From: Heptranchias perlo
Taxonomy: Eukaryota
Assembly (NCBI RefSeq): GCF_035084215.1
Contig: NC_090345.1
Coordinates: forward strand, 33,542,001 to 33,606,000
Reading direction: 5' to 3'
Length of the DNA stretch: 64,000 bases
Program-made: the position numbers and the translations under genes
Shown here: positions 681-61,065 of the stretch, in pieces
Position numbering within the stretch: position 1 is the first letter of the stretch
Layout of the letters: every line of letters starts with the position of its first letter
The notes under the pieces: model-generated
What the model was told of the DNA's origin: nothing
Seen by the model: the letters and a program-made list of their open reading frames with translations, nothing else
Databases searched by the model: none

Positions 681-943
681 TAATAAAGCATACGGGATCC
701 TGGGCTTTATAACTAGAGACATAGGGGTAAATTTTGACCCCCAAGAACGGGTGGGTAGTAACACTCCTGTTTCCAGAGCGGGACTGCATCCTGGCTTCAA
801 AGAGCCTATCCAGGTTTGACCCACACCCATTTGGATGCGCGCGCTTCTGACACCCGGAAGTCCCGTCGGCACTTAAAGCCAGCGGGATGATATTTAAAAG
901 GACCAATTGAAATATTTAAAGTACTTAAAGAAGTTAACTTTTT

Positions 944-1905
944 GTGAGCCTCCTGGACCTCTCTGAGGAGCAGTGTCTACGAAGGCTCAGATTAAGTCGC
1001 CAGATGGTCGCAGACATCTGCAGGTTCCTTCATGCAGAGCTGCTCCCAGCTGGGCCTGGTGGCCATGCATTGCCCGTCGCAGTTAAAGTCACCACTGCCC
1101 TCAATTTCTTCACCCCCGGATCCTTCCAGGGTGCCACTGGTGACATCACCGGGGTCTCTCAGTCGTCTGCACATAAGTGTATGCAACAGGTCATGGATGG
1201 GTTGTTTGCCAGGGTATCAGATTAAGTCAACTTCCCCTGCGACGATTGAGAGGGCAGTGGGTTTCCACTTTCTGGCTGGCTTCCCACGGGTGCAGGGCAC
1301 AATTGATTGCACACACGTAGCAATCTGAGGACTTGCACGTGAGCCAGGACTGTTCATCAACCGAGAGGGATATCACTCCATCAACGAGCAGCTGGTTTGC
1401 GACCACCGGAGGTGGTTTCTGCAGGTGTGTGCCAGATTTCCTGGCAGCTGCTGGCAAATGATTCCTTCATTTTGCACCAGTCCAACATCCCAGCCCTCTT
1501 CCAACACACAAAACAGACTTAAGGGATGGTGCCTTGGAGATAAAGGATATCCCGTGCAGATGTGGTTCATGACACCTCTGAGAAACCCCACTATTGAGGC
1601 ACTGCAGCGGTACAATGACAGTCACATCACCACCAGGTCTGTCAGTGAACACGCTATTGGAATGCTCAAAAAGCGCTTCAGGTGCCTGTATTGATCTGGG
1701 GGATCTCTTCGGTACTCATCGGCGAGGGTGCGTTGCGTCCTGCAGACCGTCGCTCAACAGAGGGTTACAGGTGGAGGCGCTCTCGTACTTATGAAGCATT
1801 TGCATCTGCCAGCAATTTTGAAGAAGAGGAGGAGGAAGATGGGCAACCCATTGGCAGAGCAGTGGCACACCTGGCTGCTCGTGATGCCAGGGAGTCACTC
1901 ATATC
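944..1905 (+). pseudogene. Harbinger (HARBI1-like) DDE transposase, disrupted; last codons resume at 6311-6326
   Basis: Motifs across frames: VKVTTALNFF..GSFQ, FPRVQGTIDCTHVAI, CLGDKGYP, RSVSEHAIGMLKKRFRCL. Contains stops and frameshifts. The 5' end is deleted relative to the copy at 59.9-61.1 kb. Confidence 0.88.
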
Positions 1906-2317
1906 CGGCGGAGGGGCATTGTGGGAGAGGAGCCGAGCCGAGCGGAGGGAGCGTCCGATAAAAGGCGGGATTTCAGAGCGCTGAGAGGAGCCGAGCGGAG
2001 CTGCGACCGAGTTCGAAGTGACGTCAGGAATCAGATCGGGACGCGACACAGGGGAGGCACCTGATTGGTGAGTAGGTTCAGGTGAGTATTTCTACTTATC
2101 TACAGTAACTAAAGTAAAAGGAAAGGGAAGGTCTGCAGGTCTTATAGGAAGTAGCGTTTATTTTTTAGTGAATCAAGGTCCCTAGTGTAGTTAACATTCT
2201 CTAAATTGAGAACAATTTAAAGGAGTAAACTCCTTAAAGGGAGTGGTAAGTAGTTTTTCTTTCCTTTTTTTTCTCTTGACATTGTAGTTGTTCTTAAGCT
2301 AATTTAAGGGTTAAGTC

Positions 2318-3265
2318 ATGGCAGGAGATCCCAGGGCCGTGTCATGTTCCTCTTGTGGGATGTGGGAATTCAGGGCTCCTTCCTGTATCCCTGATTCCTT
2401 CACCTGCGGGAAGTGTGTCCAGCTGCAGCTATTGTTTGACCGCTTGACGGCTCTGGAGCTGCGGATGGACTCACTTTGGAGCATCCGCGATGCTGAGAAA
2501 GTCGTGGATAGCACGTTCAGTGAGTTGGTCACACCGCAGATAAAAATTACTGAGGGAGATAGTGAATGGGTGACCAACAGACAGAGGAAGAGTAGGAAGG
2601 CAGTGCAGGGGTCCCCTGCGGTCATCTCCCTCCAAAACAGGTATACCGTTTTGGATACTGTTGGGGGAGATGGCTCACCAGGGGAAGGTGGCAGTGGCCA
2701 GGTTCATGGCACCGTGGCTGGCTCTGCTGCACAGGAGGGCAGGAAAAAGAGTGGCAGAGCTATAGTGATAGGGGACTCGATTGTAAGGGGAATAGACAGG
2801 CGTTTCTGCGGACGCAACCGAGACTCCAGGATGGTATGTTGCCTCCCTGGTGCAAGGGTCAAGGATGTCTCGGAGCGGCTGCAGGACATTCTGGAGGGGG
2901 AGGGTGAACAGCCAGTTGTCGTGGTGCATATAGGCACCAACGATATAGGTAAAAAACAGGATGAGGTCCTACAAGCTGAATTTAGGGAGTTAGGAGTTAA
3001 ACTAATGAGTAGGACCTCAAAGGTAGTAATCTCAGGATTGCTACCAGTGCCACGGGCTAGTCAGAGTAGGAATGACAGGATAGCTAAGATGAATACGTGG
3101 CTTGAGAGATGGTGCAAGAGGGAGGGATTCAAATTCCTGGGCCATTGGAACCGGTTCTGGGGGAGGTGGGACCAGTACAAATTGGACGGTCTGCATCTGG
3201 GCAGGACTGGAACCAATGTCCTAGGGGGAGTGTTTGCCAGTGCTGTTGGGGAGGGTTTAAACTAA
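2318..3265 (+). CDS. CR1 ORF1: CxxC...CxxC zinc finger, leucine zipper and SGNH/GDSL esterase
   Basis: 315 aa. CSSC..CGKC, heptad LLFDRLTALELRM, and esterase blocks VIGDSIVR, CLPGA, HIGTND, DGLH. Confidence 0.93.
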   Translation: MAGDPRAVSCSSCGMWEFRAPSCIPDSFTCGKCVQLQLLFDRLTALELRMDSLWSIRDAEKVVDSTFSELVTPQIKITEGDSEWVTNRQRKSRKAVQGSPAVISLQNRYTVLDTVGGDGSPGEGGSGQVHGTVAGSAAQEGRKKSGRAIVIGDSIVRGIDRRFCGRNRDSRMVCCLPGARVKDVSERLQDILEGEGEQPVVVVHIGTNDIGKKQDEVLQAEFRELGVKLMSRTSKVVISGLLPVPRASQSRNDRIAKMNTWLERWCKREGFKFLGHWNRFWGRWDQYKLDGLHLGRTGTNVLGGVFASAVGEGLN

Positions 3266-6213
3266 TGTGGCAGGGGGATGGGAACCGATGCAGGAAGTCA
3301 GTGGGAAATAAAGTGGTGACAGAAACAAAAGGCAGTAAGGGAGAGTGTACAGAACATGACCGGACAGATGGTCTGAGAAAGCAGGGCAAAGACCAAGGGA
3401 AGTCTAGATTAAACTGCATTTATTTCAATGCAAGAAGTCTGATGGGCAAGGCAGATGAACTCAGGGCATGGATGGGTACATGGGACTGGGATGTTATAGC
3501 TATTACTGAAACATGGCTAAGGGAGGGGCAGGACTGGCAGCTCAATGTTCCAGGGTACAGATGCTATAGGAAAGATAGAGCAGGAGGTAAGAGAGGAGGG
3601 GGAGTTGCGTTCTTGATTAGGGAGAACATCACGGCAGTAGTGAGAGGGGATATATCCGAGGGTTCGCCCACTGAGTCTATATGGGTAGAACTGAAAAATA
3701 AGAAGGGAGAGATCACTTTGATCGGATTGTACTACAGACCCCCAAATAGTCAACGGGAAATTGAGGAGCAAATATGTAAGGAGATTACAGACAGCTGCAA
3801 GAAAAATAGGGTGGTAATAGTAGGGGACTTTAACTTTCCCAACATTGACTGGGACAGCCATAGCATTAGGGGCTTGGATGGAGAGAAATTTGTTGAGTGT
3901 ATTCAGGAGGAATTTCTCATTCAGTATGTGGATGGCCCGACTAGAGAGGGGGCAAAACTTGACCTCCTCTTGGGAAATAAGGAAGGGCAGGTGACAGAAG
4001 TGTTAGTGAGGGATCACTTTGGGACCAGTGATCATAATTCCATTAGTTTTAAGATAGCTATGGAGAAGGATAGGTCTGGCCCAAAAGTTAAAATTCTAAA
4101 TTGGGGAAAGGCCAATTTTGATGGTATTAGACAGGAACTTTCAGAAGTTGATTGGGAGAGTCTGTTGGCAGGCAAAGGGACGTCTGGTAAGTGGGAGGCT
4201 TTCAAAAGTGTGTTAACCAGGGTTCAGGGTAAGCACATTCCTTATAAAGTGAAGGGCAAGGCTGGTAGAAGTAGGGAACCTTGGATGACTCGGGAGATTG
4301 AGGCCCTAGTCAAAAAGAAGAAGGAGGCATATGACATGCATAGGCAGCTGGGATCAAGTGGATCCCTTGAAGAGTATAGAGATTGCCGGAGTAGAGTTAA
4401 GAGAGAAATCAGGAGGGCAAAAAGGGGATATGAGATTGCTTTGGCAGATCAGGCAAAGGTGAATCCAAAGAGCTTCTACAAATACATAAAGGGCAAAAGG
4501 GTAACTAGGGAGAGAGTAGGGCCTCTTAAGGATCAACAAGGTCATCTATGTGCGGAACCACAAGAGATGGGTGAGATCCTGAATGAATATTTCACATCGG
4601 TATTTACGGTTGAGAAAGGCATGGATGTTAGGGAACTTGGGGAAATAAATAGTGATGTCTTGAGGAGTGTACATATTACAGAGAGGGAGGTGCTGGAAGT
4701 CTTAACGCGCATCAAGGTAGATAAATCTCCGGGACCTGATGAAATGTATCCCAGGACGTTATGGGAGGTTAGGGAGGAAATTGCGGGTCCCCTAGCAGAG
4801 ATATTTGAATCATCCACCGCTACAGGTGAGGTGCCTGAAGATTGGAGGGTAGCAAATGTTGTGCCTTTGTTTAAGAAGGGCGGCAGGGAAAAGCCTGGGA
4901 ACTACAGACCAGTGAGCCTGACATCTGTAGTGGGTAAGTTGTTAGAGGGTATTCTGAGGGACAGGATCTACAGGCATTTGGAGAGGCAGGGACTAATTAG
5001 GAACAGTCAGCATGGTTTTGTGAGAGGAAAATCATGTCTCACGAATTTGATTGAGTTTTTTGAAGGGGTAACCATGAAGATAGATGAGGGCTGTGCAGTA
5101 GACGTGGTCTACATGGACTTCAGCAAAGCATTTGACAAGGTACCGCATGGTAGGTTGTTACATAAGGTTAAATCTCATGGGATCCAAGGTGAGGTAGCCA
5201 ATTGGATACAAAATTGGCTTGACGACAAAAGACAGAGGGTGGTTGTAGAGGGTTGTTTTTCAAACTGGATGCCTGTGTCCAGCGGTGTGCCTCAGGGATC
5301 GGTGCTGGGTCCGCTGTTATTTGTTATTTATATTAATGATTTGGATGAGAATTTAGGAGGCATGGTTAGTAAGTTTGCAGATGACACCAAGATTGGTGGC
5401 ATTGTGGACAGTGAAGAAGGTTATCTAGGATTGCAACGGGATCTTGATAAATTGGGCCAGTGGGCCGATGAATGGCAGATGGAGTTTAATTTAGATAAAT
5501 GTGAGGTGATGCATTTTGGTAGATCGAATCGGGCCAGGACCTACTCCGTTAATGGTAGGGCATTGGGGAGAGTTATAGAACAAAGAGATCTGGGAGTACA
5601 GATTCATAGCTCCTTGAAAGTGGAGTCACAGGTGGATAGGGTAGTGAAGAAGGCATTCAGCATGCTTGGTTTCATTGGTCAGAACATTGAATGCAGGAGT
5701 TGGGATGTCTTGTTGAAGTTGTACAGGGCATTGGTGAGGCCACACTTGGAGTACTGTGTACAGTTCTGGTCACCCTATTATAGAAAGGATATTATTAAAC
5801 TAGAAAGAGTGCAGAAAAGATTTACTAGGATGCTACCGGGACTTGATGGTTTGACTTACAGGGAGAGGTTAGACAGACTGGGACTTTTTTCCCTGGAGAG
5901 CAGGAGGTTAAGGGGTGATCTTATCGAAGTCTATAAAATAATGAGGGGCATAGATAAGGTCGATAGTCAAAATCTTTTCCCAAAGGTAGGGGAGTCTATA
6001 ACGAGGGGGCATAGATTTAAGGTGAGAGGGGAGAGATACAAAAGGGTCCAGAGGGGCAATTTTTTCACTCAAAGGGTGGTGAGTGTCTGGAACGAGCTGC
6101 CAGAGGCAGTAGTAGAGGCGGGTACAATTTTGTCTTTTAAAAAGCATTTGGACAGTTACATGGGTAAGATGGGTATGGAGGGATATGGGCCAAGTGCAGG
6201 CAATTGGGACTAG
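3265..6213 (+). CDS. CR1 ORF2: APE endonuclease plus reverse transcriptase
   Basis: Uninterrupted frame. APE motifs YFNARSL, ITETWL, GDFN, SDH. RT motifs [25 protein letters not shown]. An in-frame ATG overlaps the ORF1 stop (TAATG); the true start mechanism is uncertain. Confidence 0.93.
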   Translation: MWQGDGNRCRKSVGNKVVTETKGSKGECTEHDRTDGLRKQGKDQGKSRLNCIYFNARSLMGKADELRAWMGTWDWDVIAITETWLREGQDWQLNVPGYRCYRKDRAGGKRGGGVAFLIRENITAVVRGDISEGSPTESIWVELKNKKGEITLIGLYYRPPNSQREIEEQICKEITDSCKKNRVVIVGDFNFPNIDWDSHSIRGLDGEKFVECIQEEFLIQYVDGPTREGAKLDLLLGNKEGQVTEVLVRDHFGTSDHNSISFKIAMEKDRSGPKVKILNWGKANFDGIRQELSEVDWESLLAGKGTSGKWEAFKSVLTRVQGKHIPYKVKGKAGRSREPWMTREIEALVKKKKEAYDMHRQLGSSGSLEEYRDCRSRVKREIRRAKRGYEIALADQAKVNPKSFYKYIKGKRVTRERVGPLKDQQGHLCAEPQEMGEILNEYFTSVFTVEKGMDVRELGEINSDVLRSVHITEREVLEVLTRIKVDKSPGPDEMYPRTLWEVREEIAGPLAEIFESSTATGEVPEDWRVANVVPLFKKGGREKPGNYRPVSLTSVVGKLLEGILRDRIYRHLERQGLIRNSQHGFVRGKSCLTNLIEFFEGVTMKIDEGCAVDVVYMDFSKAFDKVPHGRLLHKVKSHGIQGEVANWIQNWLDDKRQRVVVEGCFSNWMPVSSGVPQGSVLGPLLFVIYINDLDENLGGMVSKFADDTKIGGIVDSEEGYLGLQRDLDKLGQWADEWQMEFNLDKCEVMHFGRSNRARTYSVNGRALGRVIEQRDLGVQIHSSLKVESQVDRVVKKAFSMLGFIGQNIECRSWDVLLKLYRALVRPHLEYCVQFWSPYYRKDIIKLERVQKRFTRMLPGLDGLTYRERLDRLGLFSLESRRLRGDLIEVYKIMRGIDKVDSQNLFPKVGESITRGHRFKVRGERYKRVQRGNFFTQRVVSVWNELPEAVVEAGTILSFKKHLDSYMGKMGMEGYGPSAGNWD

Positions 6214-8153
6214 CTTAGTGGTATAAACTGGGCGACATGGACATGTTGGGCCGAAGGGCCTGTTTCCATGTTGTAACTTCTATGATTCTATGATTCTATG
6301 ATTCTATATCTAATAGATTCTCATGAGGAGATCTGCAAACTGAAGACAGTGAACTACTCAGGCCGCCTGGAACAACCACTACCACCAACACCAGCCACTC
6401 CTCCCCTCCGCTTGCACAAAACAGTCCTACAACCACACATACACCCATTGTAAATGCACCCAATGGGTGGCACCAAGTCTTGCCATTCATGATGCAGCAC
6501 GGAGCGCTTTCACAATAGGGACTCAAGAATGGACAAGACGTGGCAGTGGTGGTGACAATTATAACATTTAATGTGCTTATAAAGAAAAAACATGAAAATA
6601 TATAAATGAAAAACATGACATCTTGTCAGACACCCTTGTGCATACCCTTGGGGATTACAAAACCTTAGCCTTCCTCTTCCTAGCGCTTCTACATCGATCA
6701 TCCTCCTATGGCTTCTGTAGAGGTATTGGCAGGTTGCTCAGATCCCTGCCCTGACTACTGAGATGCTCTTGGCTATGCCCTTTGCAGGCACCACCAAAGG
6801 CAGCTCTACCTGTACCTGTGCAGGGGCAGACTTGGCCATCGGGAGAGAAGGCAACATTGCAGGTACTGGTTGGGGGGGGGGGGGCAAACAGGTGAGACGT
6901 GGGAACACTTTGAGTGAAGTCCCCACTTCCATGTCACCTTTTACCATCATCCCTCCCCAGGGCCACAGCCATGGCCATATCACTCCTATCACTCTGCTGG
7001 ACAACAACTTGGAGCACATCTGTGACGCGTTGTAAGGCCACTGCTAAAGTATGTTTGCCTGTTTAAGGCAGCAGAAAGGTTAGCATCCAGAGTCTGCATG
7101 GTCGTTATCATAGCCTGAATGGACTCATTTGAGAGTCATGCTTGAAGCTCAATGGAGGCTGCTATTCTCTCCATTGCAGGCATTCCCACACTTACCTGCG
7201 CCACCATTCCACTAATGCTGGAAGTGGACTCCACCATCCTCTCTGTTATTGTGGAGAGTGTGCATGGCACTTTTTCCAGTACCTCGCAAAGGTGCAGCTG
7301 TACCTTGATCATTCTCAACGATGGCCTGCAGGGTTCAGCATCTGCATCCAGCTAAGCAGAGCTTTGAGAAGAATGCGCTCCCTGATGCGGACTCTCCACA
7401 GCTGCCCCTGCCATGAGTGTCTGCTCGTGCTCAATTGAGAGTGGTGAATCACCAGGTGATAACCAACTATCTGCCTAACAGGACCCACTGACGTATGAGT
7501 ATCTGCGCTGGTACATGGCTGGATGTGATGTGACGGTGCACCCTCAGAGGCATGGAGCTTGTCTGAGGAATCATCCTCGTCCATGTCAAGTGCCACTTCA
7601 TCAATCCTTGAAGGCCCTGGAGGAGAACATAAAGCAATATTAAGAATCATCACAGAAGTTAATTTGCAATGAGCACACGGAGGTGTGCAACAGGTCAATC
7701 ATTGATAACAACAATTCATGATGTGTGTGAAGGATGTTAAAGTTCTATCACGAGATGTTTGCAGGGTACCAGTCTCAGCATCTCCGACAGCCAGCATTCA
7801 ACACTCTCTCCTCCTAAAAGGGGAGAAAGAGAAGATGTGTGAGGGAGTGAGGATGACAGGGTCACCCGATGGATACATTGCTTTGGGTGAGGCTGACAAT
7901 GAAGGAGATGCATCAGAGGGTGATAATCAGACAAATTCATGACATTGCATCAGGATTGGGGTGAGTGGGAGTGGTGGGTTCACAAATGGGGAGGTGAGGA
8001 AGTGCACAGGAGGTGAAGGCAAGTTGATAATGAGATTTAAGTGGGTGTGAGGAGTGATGTGATGGAGTAGGCTTGGCAAGACAGTGGGGGGTTAATAGGA
8101 ACATAGGGTTAATGTGCACCACAGGATGTAGGTGAATCAGTAACTGTACTCAC

Positions 8154-8393
8154 TTTTCCTGACCTGGTTAAATCATTAAAGCGCTTCCTGCACTGCACCC
8201 ATGTCCTCGTGATGGTGCTCCTGCTGCTCAGCTCCTCTACCACCTTGAGCCAGGCCTTCTTGGTGGCAGAGGCAGAGCACTTCCTGCGATCAGCCGGGTA
8301 CAGTATATCCCTCCTGCTCCTCACACCGGTCAGTAGCAACTCAAGTGAAGAGTCAGTAAACCGGGGTGCCTGCTTCGTCCTTTGTTGCTCGAT
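8154..8393 (-). pseudogene. Harbinger Myb/SANT-like DNA-binding gene, exon 1; degenerate downstream exons run to about 6740
   Basis: EQQRTKQAPRFTDSSLELLLTGVRSRRDILYP...KKAWLKVVEEL..RTWVQCRKRFNDLTRSGK|gtgagt. The start codon reads ATC, whereas the homologous copy has ATG at 59258. Confidence 0.82.
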
Positions 8394-8640
8394 GTCTTTA
8401 AATTCCTCCTTTCGCCCTCAAAATCCATGGTTGCAATGTCCCTTTAAATACTCCAGTTCACATCACGTCATTCGGGTGCACAGCTTGGAGATGCAAGACC
8501 CGGAAGTCACATTAAGGGCCTTCAATTGACTCGCGATTGCTCGAGACAACACACCCAAAATTTTTCCGGGTTTCCCACACATGTATTGACCCCCCCCCCA
8601 CCCCTCCCAGAGTTCCCGCCAGTATGTTAGAATTTACCCC

Positions 8641-9200: not shown

Positions 9201-9519
9201 AAAAACTATTATATATAAAATTAAATGAAAATAAATTTAAAAATGTATATAGCTGCTGATTTTTTGAATTTTGTGGGTGCCACTTCTAACATCAGGAACA
9301 CCTGCCCCGCACAACCCTGCTCTACATTCCCCTCCCAGCCTCTTACCCTCCTCTAACCCAACTTTACCCCCACTCTGCCTTCCCTTTCACCCCACAATGC
9401 TCTAAGTTCCTCTTATAAGGTCTATATTTCTGCATCACAGTCCTCTATCACCTCCAAGTCCAGTTATTCCCCACCCTGTATCCTAGGGTTGCCAACCCTC
9501 CCAGGTTGCACAGGAGTCC

Positions 9520-9840
9520 CACAAAACGGACGACCGATCTCCCAGGCGCTGCTGGTGACCTGGGAGGAAAGTACTTTAGTGTTCTGGTTCACGCCTGCGC
9601 TCCTCCGACGGCCCGAACTGTCAATTCCCACCCAGCACCATCCTGCCTACCTCCGTAGAGCCGGAGGCGTAGTCTATCGCCAGGTTAAACAATCCCCCGC
9701 TGGAACATCCCTCGTGGTTGGCCGCTGGTCCCACACCCGCTGCCCTTGCGTTTGCCTGCGAGGCAGCTTGCCGCACTTCCTGTGAAGTCACAGCACTCGA
9801 GCGGAGGAAGTTCGTAGCCCACCGTGCTGGTTTTAGTGCC
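9520..9840 (+). promoter_or_regulatory. CpG-island-like promoter with ETS-type sites
   Basis: About 28 CpG (hand count) in 9520-9900 against a CpG-poor background. CACTTCC near 9774 and GGAAGT near 9806 lie just upstream of gccATG. Confidence 0.55.
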
Positions 9841-9907
9841 ATGAGCCAGCAGGAACGGGACGACCCGTACCTGGTGGAGGAGCCAAGTGACGAGGTGGAT
9901 TTTCAAG
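9841..9907 (+). CDS. EAPP-like first coding exon, isolated (no other EAPP exons found)
   Basis: gtgccATG...TTT CAA G|gtaagt = MSQQERDDPYLVEEPSDEVDFQ(G). DPYLVEEPSDE matches the recalled human EAPP N-terminus DPYAVEEPSDE at 10/11, at nearly the same distance from Met. Consensus donor. Confidence 0.6.
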
Positions 9908-11189
9908 GTAAGTTTCTCAGCTTACCAATTTAACAGAATGTGCATTGCCATCCTTGACCTTCTATTTAGCACTCTCAGCAAAGCACGGATATCAAGCCAT
10001 TAAGTAAATGCAGTAACATTTGCAGACTGCAGTGCATGTCATGTGACCAGCTGTCATGTGACCAAATCTCCAGAGTTGGCAATCCTGCACTGAATCAGTT
10101 AATGTCAAAACTGCAGCCGAATCCTTGTTGAACAAATAATGAGCTAAAAGAGTTTATCTGTTCCATTGTCATCTGGTCATCTTAATTTCCCCCAGCAGGA
10201 AATGACCACATCTTTCTCCGAAAGCTCATTAGCAAAGTTTTAACAACAGTGTCAGGTTTGACTCTGTTATTGGAGGATTGGAGGGAGTGGGGGGGGGGGG
10301 GGGGCAAAAGAGAGGCAGAAAACCGAGAGTAGTGTGGAAAAGGAAAACAAATCTAGTTTCAGCTTAGTTCCTGATTTTCCACCAGTTTTAATGTCCATCT
10401 CTGCCTCTCTTGCCATCAAATGATGGTGAAAAACAGCTCCTCAGTTCTGAAGATAGGCAAGAGGCGGCCCACGTTATCTGCTCACTCAAGTATATCACAG
10501 CACTTTCTATGGCTCCATTTTCTCAGTACAGTAAATACATTTTAAAATTTAAATATATATTTTTGGAACTAATTTTTACCCACTTTTGTTCCTCGTGCAC
10601 CACATTCTACTTTGTGGCCAAGAGGAGGTGGGCAGTTTGCCAGGCCTCTGCTACTAATTAACTGGTTAACAGAAAGTGCAAGAGAGTCACCCAAGGTGAC
10701 TCACCCGCTAATGTTTCCTCTATCCCTTGGGGAAGATCTTTGCCTTTGTTTGGCACATCCCAGATGGCACAGCTTACATTACAAACTTACCAAGTGATCA
10801 ATTACAGAAGAAAAATGCATTTCAATCTTATGCGACACAGCACACCGATTATCTAATGTACTTTGCCACCTGTTCCTATTTTATAAAAAAACTGCCTGTA
10901 AATAGAATACTCCATGGTAAACTGTGAAATATAGTCTTCATTACAAAAGTCAATGCAACCTTAATTACACATAAATGTTGCCACGCACAATCTATTAGGT
11001 TTTCCTTATCGTGGGATAATTTCTATAGTTTCCCCAGTCGGTACCCTTCAGCCTTCAAATTGCAGGAAATATTAAACTTTGGAATTTTTTTTTTTTACTA
11101 ATAATGTGTGAAAACAATTCTGTGCATCATCCAGAGCTTCTTCTGATCCAAAAGTTACCCTCAAAGCTTGTTTGTGCCTCAAGTCTAGT

Positions 11190-41687: not shown

Positions 41688-41777
<90 letters not shown>

Positions 41778-54898: not shown

Positions 54899-55348
<450 letters not shown>

Positions 55349-57611: not shown

Positions 57612-59257
57612 AACAGCTAGAATAAGAGAGCTCTGGGATTTGCAGCAATGGCTGGCTTCCCTTTGTGTCCAGGGCAAAATGGACTAATGAGAGTAGCTTT
57701 TAAGGCACCAGAAGATGAGCCAGCAGCCTATGTGAACAGGAAAGATTTCCACTCCATCAACTGGCGAGTGATCACTGCCAACGGATAATGCAAGTCCGCG
57801 TCAGTCTCGCTGGCAGCTGCCACGATGCCTTTATTCTGCAATGCTCACCCATCCGCCCACTTTTCTATCCTTTCAGGAACATCAAAGGTTGGATGTATCT
57901 CTTCTCGTTGGTGTTTACATCTTTGAGACCAGTTATCAAACCTCTATATCAATGACATTCTGACAATGTAGACAAAGAAGCTGCAATGAAAACAGACTAT
58001 AGACCAAAGTGCAAATGTGATAAAGGTGATGATTTGAATTCCAAACACAAAACTGTGTAGAATTCTTCTGTCACCAAGTGATTAACCCATAGTGTTTTTC
58101 ATGAAAGAAAGTTTACTAACTTCATTACTCCTACGAGGAGCTCCCCCAGTGGACTCAGCAGGGCTGGTGGATGATTGCTGCTGCTTATGTGGAGACCCTT
58201 GAGTTGATCGTGGCTGGCCACTTCTGGGTACTCGAACCTTGAGGGGCCCGGCTGCAGACTGCAGAATTTCGGCTGCTGCCATGGCAGTCTAGCCCAGCTG
58301 GCTGTCTGGCACCATGATTCGGGGGGAGGGGGGTTGGGGAGGGGGGCTGGGGAGGGGGGCAGGGAGCAGACATGCTGACATCCTGAGAGGGGGCAAAATT
58401 TGCCGCTCCCACTGCGCCACTGCGGCTCATCACTTCCACTGATCTTGGGGAGAAGAATCAGAATCATAGAATGGTTACAGCACAGAAGGAGGCCATTCGG
58501 CCCGTCGAGCCCATACCAGCAGGAGACTGCAGAAGGTGAGTGACACTTTGAAAGTCCCTATCCATTTGCTTCACCTGTCTCTCCAAGGTCAATGTCTGTC
58601 TCTGCAAGGCGGAGAGCTGCTTTTCCAAGGCAGAGCATAAGCGTGAGCCCAGAGCCTGCATGGCAGTCGTTTGAGCTTCCATCAAAGCTGTAACGGCGGT
58701 GAACATTCACTCCTGTTGTGAGGGCCCAGCTGCAGCGTCCCGAGAGGTGGCCACACTCTCCAAGGTAGATTGCAGAGCACTGATGCCATGCGAGATGACA
58801 CAACACAGGCTGGAAGTGGATTCCTCCATACTTTCAGCCATGGTGCTGAACCTCCTTGGCAGGCCTTCCAATACCTGATATAGCTGCTTGTGTGAAACAA
58901 ATAGTTTTCTTCTGATTGCTGGGCCCCTGTAGTCCAGACCTCTGTCCTCCTCAGCAGAGCTGGGAGACAACCTTGCCCTCTGGTGCTTGGGAGTTGTACA
59001 GGGCATGACAGGACTGGATGGCAGCAGGGGCGGGGGGGGGTCAATAGACGTGTGGGTAACCCGAATAATAAAAACTTACCGTTCCCCACGCAATCGTGAC
59101 TTAATTGGTGGCCATTAATCTTGTTTCCGGGTTTGCCGCCGAAAGCTGTGCAGTGGGCGGACTGCACACTCGCATGACAGGCTGTCAGCTGCAGCGTCTA
59201 GATTTAAAGGGCCATTGCTCCGATAGATTTTGCTGGAGCAAAGGGCAAGAAGACACA

Positions 59258-59496
59258 ATGGAGCAGCACAGGGGCAAGGCTGCTCCAAGATTCAGCGATG
59301 CCTCGCTTGAGCTGCTGCTGACCGGGGTGAGGAGGAGGAGGGAACTATTTTACCCGGCCGACAGGAGGAAGTGCCCGGCCTCTGCCACTATGAAAGCTTG
59401 GCTCGAGGTGGCAGAAGAGGTCACCAGCAGGAGCAACATATCCCGCACTTGGGTCAGTGCAGGAAGCGTTTCAATGATCTAACTAGGTCAGCAAAA
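59258..59496 (+). pseudogene. Harbinger Myb/SANT-like gene, exon 1 (1-nt frameshift); exon 2 starts near 59834
   Basis: MEQHRGKAAPRFSDASLELLLTGVRRRRELFYP...AWLEVAEEV..QCRKRFNDLTRSAK|gtgagt, then ccccttctag|..RAQNARERARTGGG. Confidence 0.82.
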
Positions 59497-59889
59497 GTGA
59501 GTACACTTACTGATTCTCCTGCATTCCGTGTCGCACATCACCCCCCCACCCCTCACATCATTCTGCACTGCCAAGACTACTCCATCACATCACTCCTCAC
59601 ACCCGCTTAAGGCTCATCCTCAACTTACCTTCACTTCCTGAGCACTTCCTCACCTCCCCATTTGTGACCCCACCACTACCACTCACCCCAATCCTGATCC
59701 AATGTGATGTCTCTGTCTCATACTCACCCTCTGATGCACCTCTTTCACGGTCAGCCTCACCCAAAACAATGCATTCATCAGCTGACCACTTCACCCTCAC
59801 TCACTCACACGTCAGTACTTTCTCCCCTTCTAGAAGAGAGCGCAAAATGCACGTGAGAGGGCGAGGACTGGAGGAGGGCCACAACAAAT

Positions 59890-61065
59890 AGACTCCCTGG
59901 CCTCACGAGCAGCCGGGTGAGCTGCTGTTCTCCCGATTATGTTTGTCCTCCTCTTCCTCCTCGTGCTGCTGCTTCTCTTCAATGTTCCTTGCAGATGCGG
60001 ATGCTGGATGAAGGCAACTGGTACCCCTCTCAGTTGCGCCATGTTGTGCAGGGCATAATGCACTACTAAAATGCGTCCGACTCTTGCTGGTACTGAAGCG
60101 CTCCCCTAGAACAATCAAGGCACCAAAATCGCATCTTCAGCAGCACTATCGCATGTTCAATGACCGACCTGGTGGCGATGTGGCTGTCACTGTATCGACA
60201 CTGTTACTCGCTGATGGGGTTCCTCACAGATGTCATTAGCCACATGTGCAAAGGGTGTCCCTTGTCCCTGAGGAGCCAGCCCTTAAGACTGTTTGGTGCG
60301 TAGAAGAGGGCCAGGATGTTGGATTCCCTCAGAATGAATGAATCATGGCAGCTGCCAGGGAATCTGACACACGTGAAGAAATCTCTTGCGGTGGTCACAA
60401 ATGAGCTGAGCGTTGATGGAGTGAAAACCCATTCTGTTGATAAACAGTCCTGGCTCGTGTGGAGGCGCTTGGATTGCTATATGCGTGCAATTGATTGCAC
60501 CCTATACACATGGGAAGCCAGCCACAGAGTGGAATCCCACTGCCCTCTCCATCTGGCTGAGGTCGTCCATGGGGAAGTTGACGTATTGCGAAGCCCTGCG
60601 AAACAAACCGTCGGTGACCTGCCTTACGCACTTGTGGGCAGACGGCTGAGAGACCCCGGCGATGTCACCAGTGGCACCCAGGAAAGATCAGGAGGTGAAG
60701 AAGTTGAGGGCAGTGGTGACTTTAACTGCGATGGGTAATGAGATGCCGCCAGGCCCAGCCGAGAGCAGCTCAGCATGAAGGAAGCTGCAGATGTCCGCAA
60801 CTACCTGGCGACTCACTCTCAGCCTCCATATGCACTGCTCCTCAGAGAGGTCCAGGAAGCTCAGCCTCAGTCTGTAGACCCTCTGATGAGGGTAGTGCCT
60901 CCTGCGACGTCGCTCCCTCTGTTGTTCCCCTCTGTGCTCTTGTGCAGGTGCCTATGGTGCAGCACTGTGTTGTGGAGCTACAAGTGGCAGAAGTGCACGC
61001 CTGGCAAGGATGGTGATGTTCCTCGTCCTCGGATGTACTGGTGAATGCAGCCTCGCACCCCCCAT
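59890..61065 (-). pseudogene. Harbinger DDE transposase, disrupted
   Basis: VRFPGSCHDSFILRES, GWLLRDKGHP, GAINCTHIAI and RSVIEHAIVLLKMRF across frames. Confidence 0.85.

What the first reader, a model, noticed from the sequence alone, without database searches (positions are those of the whole stretch)
9484..10087. hAT-like element carrying a CpG promoter and EAPP-like first exon (candidate vertebrate Pack element)
Seen: inverted termini TAGGGTTGCCAACCCT and AGAGTTGGCAATCCTG, with a 7/10 direct repeat outside them. They enclose a CpG-dense segment with ETS-type motifs, gccATG, a 67-nt exon (MSQQERDDPYLVEEPSDEVDFQ), a consensus AAG|GTAAGT donor and ~120 nt of intron-like sequence. Known: DPYxVEEPSDE is the N-terminus of EAPP, a gene not adjacent to DNTT in mammals. 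Gene-fragment capture by TIR elements is common in plants and less often reported in vertebrates. I found no other EAPP exon in 64 kb. Inference: a DNA-level capture of a housekeeping promoter, ATG and donor, i.e. a portable gene-start module. CpGs persist although the TIRs and TSD have decayed, which hints the copy stays unmethylated.
Basis: partly seen in the sequence, partly recalled or inferred. Interest (0 to 1): 0.75.

Follow-up and report, generated by a model that had tools for sequence, protein, structure and literature searches.

The report
Shark transposon spreading an EAPP gene start
A small cut-and-paste transposon in a shark carries the start of a host housekeeping gene (likely EAPP) and has spread it to many places; this copy is decaying, but it appears to keep the unspliced exon end while sister copies appear to carry the spliced one, which would mean an RNA step in the history of a DNA transposon.

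Summary
Real. The 604-bp element has hAT-type ends: 52 DNA contigs break off at its left end and 8 run on to a perfect right end. The same terminus gives perfect 8-bp duplications in 8 of 18 paired elements elsewhere. Its 62-nt coding start matches an abundant host transcript at 53/62, and 15 DNA contigs share exon variants, so the cargo is multicopy and this is not the true gene. The name EAPP is recalled; no tool confirmed it.

New twist: this copy ends the exon like the host RNA (4 nt shorter) and goes into a consensus donor, whereas 3 + 4 sister DNA contigs read on in the host coding frame. If the intron lies where I recall, one family holds unspliced and spliced forms.

Not shown: promoter homology, donor use, protection from methylation, an 8-bp target duplication. 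The element probably lies antisense in DNTT's last intron. Multicopy Pack-TIRs are known but rare in vertebrates. This scan already noted shark Pack-hATs with other cargo (TPR, TPP2, QKI, EPB41L-like; HDHD3 in this genome).

The parts
9484..9499 (+). Left terminal inverted repeat (hAT-type, begins TAGGG)
   Evidence: pair I19; 21 + 31 X1 contigs have unrelated loose ends before 9483/9484 (agreement 0.40, 0.37)
9500..9576 (+). Left subterminal arm; high copy to 9518, where 55 contigs leave for another interior; inner limit approximate
   Evidence: tables 2, 5, 7
9577..9838 (+). CpG-rich promoter-like segment, shared in pieces by a few sister contigs; the last ~40 nt likely the host 5' UTR; origin of the rest not shown
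   Evidence: 18 CpG in 9601-9838, o/e 0.83; sister pieces 9602-9683, 9695-9788, 9723-9802; host RNA? contigs of X5 and X7 begin 39 nt before 9839
9839..9907 (+). Captured first coding exon (ATG 9841), likely EAPP; 4 nt shorter than the host RNA up to the exon end
   Evidence: 9839-9900 matches host RNA? contigs of depth 889, 379, 639 with 9 differences in 62 and no gap; window 9901-9907 fits host loose-end letters 5-11 at 6/7 (compared by eye)
9905..9913 (+). Consensus splice donor AAG|GTAAGT, seen in this copy only among the contigs laid
   Evidence: depth at 9906-9913 is the copy's own contig alone, 6.7; the 8-mer AGGTAAGT occurs 4 times in 128 kb of both strands
9914..9967 (+). Low-copy AT-richer intron-like segment shared with sister copies; origin not shown
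   Evidence: Joints 9895-to-9914 (2 contigs) and 9899-to-9914 (1 contig, 59 letters between against 14 here)
9969..10071 (+). Right subterminal arm of the transposon, high copy
   Evidence: 9 contigs have loose ends before 9969; 38 contigs carry one variant at 10013
10072..10087 (-). Right terminal inverted repeat, decayed; this copy lacks 16 nt just inside it
   Evidence: 8 contigs behind 10073 continue 30 letters to a perfect inverse of the left end, against 14 letters here
9474..9483 (+). Left half of an imperfect flanking repeat (possible decayed target duplication)
   Evidence: 7/10 with 10088-10097; 2/8 in hAT register; about 3% by chance
10088..10097 (+). Right half of the imperfect flanking repeat
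41694..41777 (-). Context: last DNTT exon found in the window; the final coding exon is absent, so the element likely lies in DNTT's last intron, antisense

Best explanation
This is one decayed copy of a multicopy non-autonomous transposon family with hAT-type ends that carries the 5' start of an expressed host gene (likely EAPP), likely first captured from genomic DNA with its exon-1 donor, after which a sister lineage likely acquired the spliced exon junction through an RNA-derived template. Shown: family-defined ends, many insertion sites for the ends, multicopy cargo, a host transcript that matches the cargo and continues in frame, sisters that continue in that frame. Inferred: a hAT element gained the CpG-rich gene start by template switch or gap repair; a transposase in trans spread it; this copy lost 4 nt of exon, about 62 nt at 9968 and 16 nt inside the right end and is now inert; in another branch the intron start was replaced by about 40 nt of exon 2 (cDNA conversion from host mRNA, or exact intron loss from a longer founder) before further spread. 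No function of this copy is shown.
For: Ends: 52 contigs break at the left end, 8 reach a perfect right end; same 18-nt terminus gives perfect 8-bp duplications in 8 of 18 paired elements and none perfect at 5-7 or 9-11 bp. Host gene elsewhere: 53/62 match to contigs of depth 889/379/639 in three RNA? runs, continuing P-A-S-S-S-E-D-E-L-D. Multicopy cargo: 31 contigs laid on 9690-9920, 19 under 90% alike, 15 share variants at 9855 and 9857. Cargo tied to arms in other contigs: exon to right part (9890-to-9993, 9893-to-9969, 9895-to-9977, 9895/9899-to-9914) and left arm to CpG part (9509-to-9760, 9554-to-9723, 9576-to-9766), 15 of 21 joints shown. Donor authentic: 6/7 fit to the host exon end directly before a rare perfect donor. 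Spliced form in DNA: consensus of 3 contigs behind 9890 and of 4 behind 9899 read E-E-D-A-V-S-S-S-E-D, with 9/9 and 14/18 matches to the host RNA after the point where this copy has its donor (by eye).
Against: EAPP name and intron position are recalled; five protein look-ups were blank. The true gene's genomic contig was not seen (6 of 26 loose-end rows and 8 of 31 pieces shown). The spliced reading rests on consensus rows (agreement 0.88 and 0.74), and the tie of those contigs to the transposon arm is inferred from joints starting at the same places. Sisters differ from today's host RNA just before the junction (6/11). The RNA step is a rare event. No clean 8-bp target duplication here, and the left flank is shared with another contig. 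All runs are one sample; X5-X7 are only guessed to be RNA.
Confidence: 0.55

Rival explanations
1. Pure DNA capture with a longer exon: the shark gene's first intron lies about 41 nt further on, sisters simply keep the whole exon, and this copy lost 45 nt in frame while keeping the true donor.
For: 59 letters against 14 is an exact 45-nt difference; needs no RNA step; matches the exon-1-plus-intron-start pattern noted for other shark Pack-hATs (unchecked notes).
Against: Three sister contigs resume at 9914, not at 9900; the 6/7 fit to the host RNA at the recalled exon end would be chance; vertebrate intron positions are usually conserved (own knowledge).
Confidence: 0.2
2. RNA-first origin: the founder took a spliced EAPP piece (from mRNA or an existing retrocopy); the donor here is an accident of a deletion junction and the CpG-rich part comes from elsewhere.
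For: Sisters read across the presumed junction; the donor is private to this copy among contigs laid; no promoter homology shown; bat Helitrons carry retrogenes (PMC4224331).
Against: A perfect donor plus a 6/7 host exon end by chance is unlikely (4 such 8-mers in 128 kb); the cargo is a 5' end with about 220 nt of CpG-rich DNA upstream of the host 5' end, unlike 5'-truncated LINE products.
Confidence: 0.13
3. The copy is a working portable promoter or first exon.
For: CpG o/e 0.83 in 9601-9838; one contig in RNA? run X5 matches this copy at 346/347 over 9651-9997 while both unique flanks have no depth.
Against: That contig reads through the donor; contigs give no strand; the site is likely inside a DNTT intron, so pre-mRNA or DNA explains it; not in X6 or X7; no plus-strand host-gene Pfam hit downstream; CpG loss is not clearly one-sided (7 against 6 of 41).
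Confidence: 0.07
4. This copy is not an intact transposed unit but a segmental duplicate or a hybrid of ends from two insertions.
For: X1 record 2 shares the left flank (9263-9357) and the left end (9457-9543); 8-bp register matches 2/8.
Against: Other contigs join both arms to the cargo, and one joins 9517 to 10019; this bears on this copy's history, not on the family.
Confidence: 0.05

Closest known systems
Multicopy Pack-TIRs of animals, e.g. Pack-hAT-N8_XT with a 291-bp CAPSL 5' UTR in Xenopus tropicalis (Tan et al. 2021, PMC8277862; read: passages, sections 7 and 14, one supplement search)
   Same: hAT ends, short 5' host-gene cargo, several insertion sites, GC-rich capture.
   Different: Only 4 (1.4%) multicopy cases, the frog example with 3 copies; here 15 contigs share exon variants. 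Their screen needed 90% identity and discarded intronless cargo; the one row my search for 'shark' found (elephant shark) had 0 Pack-TIRs. Here spliced and unspliced forms may coexist.
Bat Helitrons carrying promoter, 5' UTR, first exon and intron start, or retrogenes (Thomas et al. 2014, PMC4224331; read: passages)
   Same: Bias to housekeeping-gene 5' ends; amplification; RNA-derived cargo inside a DNA transposon is reported there.
   Different: Rolling-circle elements without inverted ends; their retrogenes are LINE insertions with poly(A) and target duplications or captured retrogenes, not two forms of one junction in one family.
hAT superfamily non-autonomous elements; hATm termini TAGGGTG with 8-9 bp duplications (PMC6004678; read: passages); Blackjack group (recalled)
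   Same: Terminus begins TAGGG; the same 18-nt end gives 8-bp duplications elsewhere.
   Different: Sixth and seventh bases differ from hATm; no transposase partner found; subfamily name not tested.
Plant Pack-MULEs (as summarised in PMC8277862)
   Same: Gene-fragment capture and spread by inverted-repeat elements.
   Different: Different superfamily and kingdom; about one third multicopy there.

Membership tests
hAT non-autonomous element | Short terminal inverted repeats with shared boundaries at many sites | tested here: met
   13/16 here; 52 contigs break at the left end, 8 reach a perfect right end
hAT non-autonomous element | 8-bp target-site duplication at this copy | tested here: inconclusive
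   2/8 in register, 6/8 with 2-nt offset, about 3% by chance; copy is old and eroded
hAT non-autonomous element | Terminus type gives 8-bp duplications | tested here: met
   8 of 18 paired elements among 85 metagenome loci perfect at 8 bp, none at 5-7 or 9-11; some of the 18 are the same site re-assembled. These are other elements, alike only in the first 21-37 nt
hAT non-autonomous element | Autonomous partner with hAT transposase | tested here: inconclusive
Multicopy Pack-TIR (Tan et al. 2021) | Internal host-derived sequence of 100-5000 bp between two ends of one element | tested here: met
   About 390 nt between the arms; 62 nt match a host transcript; rest unassigned
Multicopy Pack-TIR (Tan et al. 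2021) | Several copies at distinct sites | tested here: met
   15 contigs share exon variants; several join cargo to an arm. Flanks of each cargo copy not seen
Multicopy Pack-TIR (Tan et al. 2021) | Screen cut-off: parental copy at 90% identity or more | tested here: not met
   53/62 = 85%; a cut-off for young cases, not a biological limit
Multicopy Pack-TIR (Tan et al. 2021) | Cargo keeps introns (DNA-level); parental locus free of the element | tested here: inconclusive
   Donor here, read-through in 3 + 4 sister contigs; parental genomic contig not seen
True EAPP gene | Identity to the expressed mRNA and downstream exons | tested here: not met
   9 differences in 62, 4 nt short; no Eapp_C in 300 of 310 frames
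EAPP-derived cargo | Match to a named EAPP sequence | tested here: inconclusive
   blank for a 20-residue match; name rests on recall
Active promoter or first exon | Plus-strand starts, donor use, low methylation | not testable with these tools
   Only contigs, no strand or start information

The most novel reading that the evidence does not exclude
A shark hAT family captured the EAPP gene start from DNA and then had its intron removed or overwritten through RNA, so one cut-and-paste family preserves both the unspliced and the spliced junction; with the other shark cases this would make elasmobranch hATs a systematic harvester of housekeeping-gene starts that exchanges sequence with mRNA.
Probability: 0.4. 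Interest if true: 0.78.

Novelty: new variant of a known kind. Interest (0 to 1): 0.55.

Why it matters
Multicopy gene capture by inverted-repeat transposons was reported as rare in vertebrates (4 cases, 1.4%), and that survey discarded intronless cargo. A family with many copies and two forms of one exon junction would let one order the steps (DNA capture, spread, RNA-templated change) on a copy tree, and test whether cDNA edits DNA transposons. If the shark intron simply lies elsewhere, it is one more good example of a known class.

Tried and rejected
No Rfam hit in the window. Protein look-ups of the peptide were blank; a 20-residue acidic match is near the limit of these searches, so this is no evidence against EAPP; shark proteins are in the collection. 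The run search listed no holder on record as RNA. A degenerate exon pattern found nothing in metagenome contigs. The terminus scan found 85 loci, none alike beyond the first 21-37 nt. No second copy of the element in the window. Earlier-finding look-ups by sequence, near place and relatives were empty, as were two word look-ups. Paper searches gave no EAPP exon map (PMC1087227 not held; the EAPP hits in PMC7261175 are a FRET symbol). Searches for shark gene capture and for intron loss in Pack elements listed nothing on this case; 15, 15, 15 and 7 listings seen of 260, 25, 19 and 7. Rejected: true gene; ETS enrichment (P = 0.15); the 7/10 repeat as proof of a target duplication; summed contig depth as copy number. 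Parts without cover in the RNA? runs prove nothing.

Full report
Observation. The features are at the stated places: inverted ends 9484-9499 and 10072-10087 (13/16), ATG 9841, 67 nt to a consensus donor at 9908, and 28 CpG in 9484-9907 (o/e 0.73; window 0.33). The flanking 7/10 repeat is not in the 8-bp hAT register (2/8; 6/8 with a 2-nt offset) and has about 3% chance probability over the registers tried. ETS-type cores are not enriched (2 against 0.7, P = 0.15).

Context. Three DNTT exons on the minus strand are identical to record P0001, a shark DNTT named for Heptranchias perlo. The last coding exon is not in the window, so the element likely sits antisense in DNTT's last intron, of more than 41 kb. 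No host-gene Pfam family was found in 300 of 310 plus-strand frames of 40 aa or more from 9900 to 57500.

The ends are a transposon family. In X1, 21 + 31 contigs have unrelated sequence before 9483/9484. Fifty-five leave after 9518 for another interior. Nine join at 9969, and 8 continue behind 10073 to a perfect inverse of the left end, 16 nt longer than this copy. A scan for the first 18 nt found 85 metagenome loci; 18 matches paired with an inverted end, 8 of them with perfect 8-bp duplications and none perfect at other lengths (some rows are one site re-assembled). That supports hAT-type ends; no transposase was found in 19 of 67 long frames.

The cargo comes from an expressed host gene. 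One contig in each RNA? run (depth 889, 379, 639) matches 9839-9900 with 9 differences and goes on in frame as P-A-S-S-S-E-D-E-L-D. This agrees with my recollection of the EAPP N-terminus, but no tool named it. At 85% identity in the same sample, the window copy is not the gene. No listed piece of the host contigs covers 9520-9838, although the X6 contig has 880 nt before the match, so the promoter origin of the CpG-rich part is not shown. By eye the last 15 letters of the host 5' end fit the window at 11/15 across a 3-nt gap.

The cargo is multicopy. On 9690-9920, 31 X1 contigs were laid, 19 under 90% alike; 15 share variants at 9855 and at 9857. With two alleles per locus that is at least about 8 loci. 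Joints link exon pieces to the right part (9890-to-9993, 9893-to-9969, 9895-to-9977, 9895/9899-to-9914) and the left arm to the CpG part (three contigs). One sister present in X6 and X7 holds exon, 9914-9967 and right arm on one contig.

The junction puzzle. Window 9901-9907 fits host loose-end letters 5-11 at 6/7, that is the host sequence less 4 nt, and is followed by a perfect donor (this 8-mer occurs 4 times in 128 kb). From memory, mammalian EAPP has its first intron at the equivalent point. Yet the consensus of 3 DNA contigs behind 9890 (agreement 0.88) and of 4 behind 9899 (0.74) runs on in coding frame, E-E-D-A-V-S-S-S-E-D, matching the host RNA at 9/9 and 14/18 after that point and 6/11 before it (counted by eye; 6 of 26 rows shown; two further rows of 2 contigs each, agreement 0.72 and 0.62, go on differently). 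One sister has 59 letters where this copy has 14 and rejoins at 9914. No other contig covers the donor. Three readings: (1) DNA capture with the true donor, then an RNA-templated change in a sister branch (0.55); (2) the shark intron lies further on and this copy lost 45 nt (0.2); (3) RNA-first capture with an accidental donor (0.13). The true gene's genomic contig, which would decide, was not among the rows shown.

Activity. One X5 contig matches this copy at 346/347 over 9651-9997 and reads through the donor; no spliced piece from this donor is listed in any of the three runs. Contigs give no strand, the runs are only guessed to be RNA, and the site is likely intronic, so this is no proof of promoter use. 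Of 41 listed sister differences that I scored (one search hid 30 further rows and I left out its 5 flank rows), 7 are deaminations at this copy's CpGs and 6 are CpGs this copy lacks: protection from methylation is not shown.

Comparison. Tan et al. 2021 (PMC8277862; passages, sections 7 and 14, supplement search) found 4 (1.4%) multicopy Pack-TIRs, one a frog hAT with a 5' UTR in three copies; they discarded intronless cargo, the elephant shark row shows 0, and EAPP does not occur in 12 supplementary files. Thomas et al. 2014 (PMC4224331; passages) report bat Helitrons with promoter-first-exon cargo and with retrogenes. PMC6004678 (passages) gives TAGGGTG ends with 8-9 bp duplications for hATm. 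PMC3114185 (passages) says the human EAPP promoter is TATA-less and Sp1-regulated; PMC13317346 (one passage) and PMC7261175 (passages) added nothing. Searches (listings only) showed no report of this case; bioRxiv supplements were not open. Earlier notes of this scan describe shark Pack-hATs with TPR, TPP2, QKI, EPB41L-like and, in this genome, HDHD3 cargo (unchecked).

Verdict. Interest 0.55.

Noticed in passing
window 9263-9483: The left flank is shared: X1 record 2 (3002 nt) matches 9263-9357 and 9457-9543, and one contig each in X5 and X6 matches 9467-9509. An old duplicate of this site, or the flank is itself a repeat.
   Followed up: no
window 1-41693: DNTT's final coding exon is not in the window, so its last intron appears to exceed 41 kb.
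   Followed up: partly
window 2315-6213: LINE with an unbroken 1035-aa endonuclease/reverse-transcriptase-like frame (3106-6213) and a 316-aa upstream frame; looks young.
   Followed up: no
window 940-2100, 7100-8500, 58700-60900: Harbinger-like transposon pieces, judged by eye from the translations; the first is as CpG-rich as the element.
   Followed up: no
L040 33-170, L070 1258-1395, L076 1288-1425: The 18-nt hAT-type terminus occurs three times at 60-nt spacing, a tandem array of a transposon end.
   Followed up: no
window 54926-55216: The shark DNTT exon has about 15 extra residues against mouse TdT in the loop before the W-K-A-I-R-V-D-L stretch, and an internal donor-like site at 55061.
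   Followed up: no
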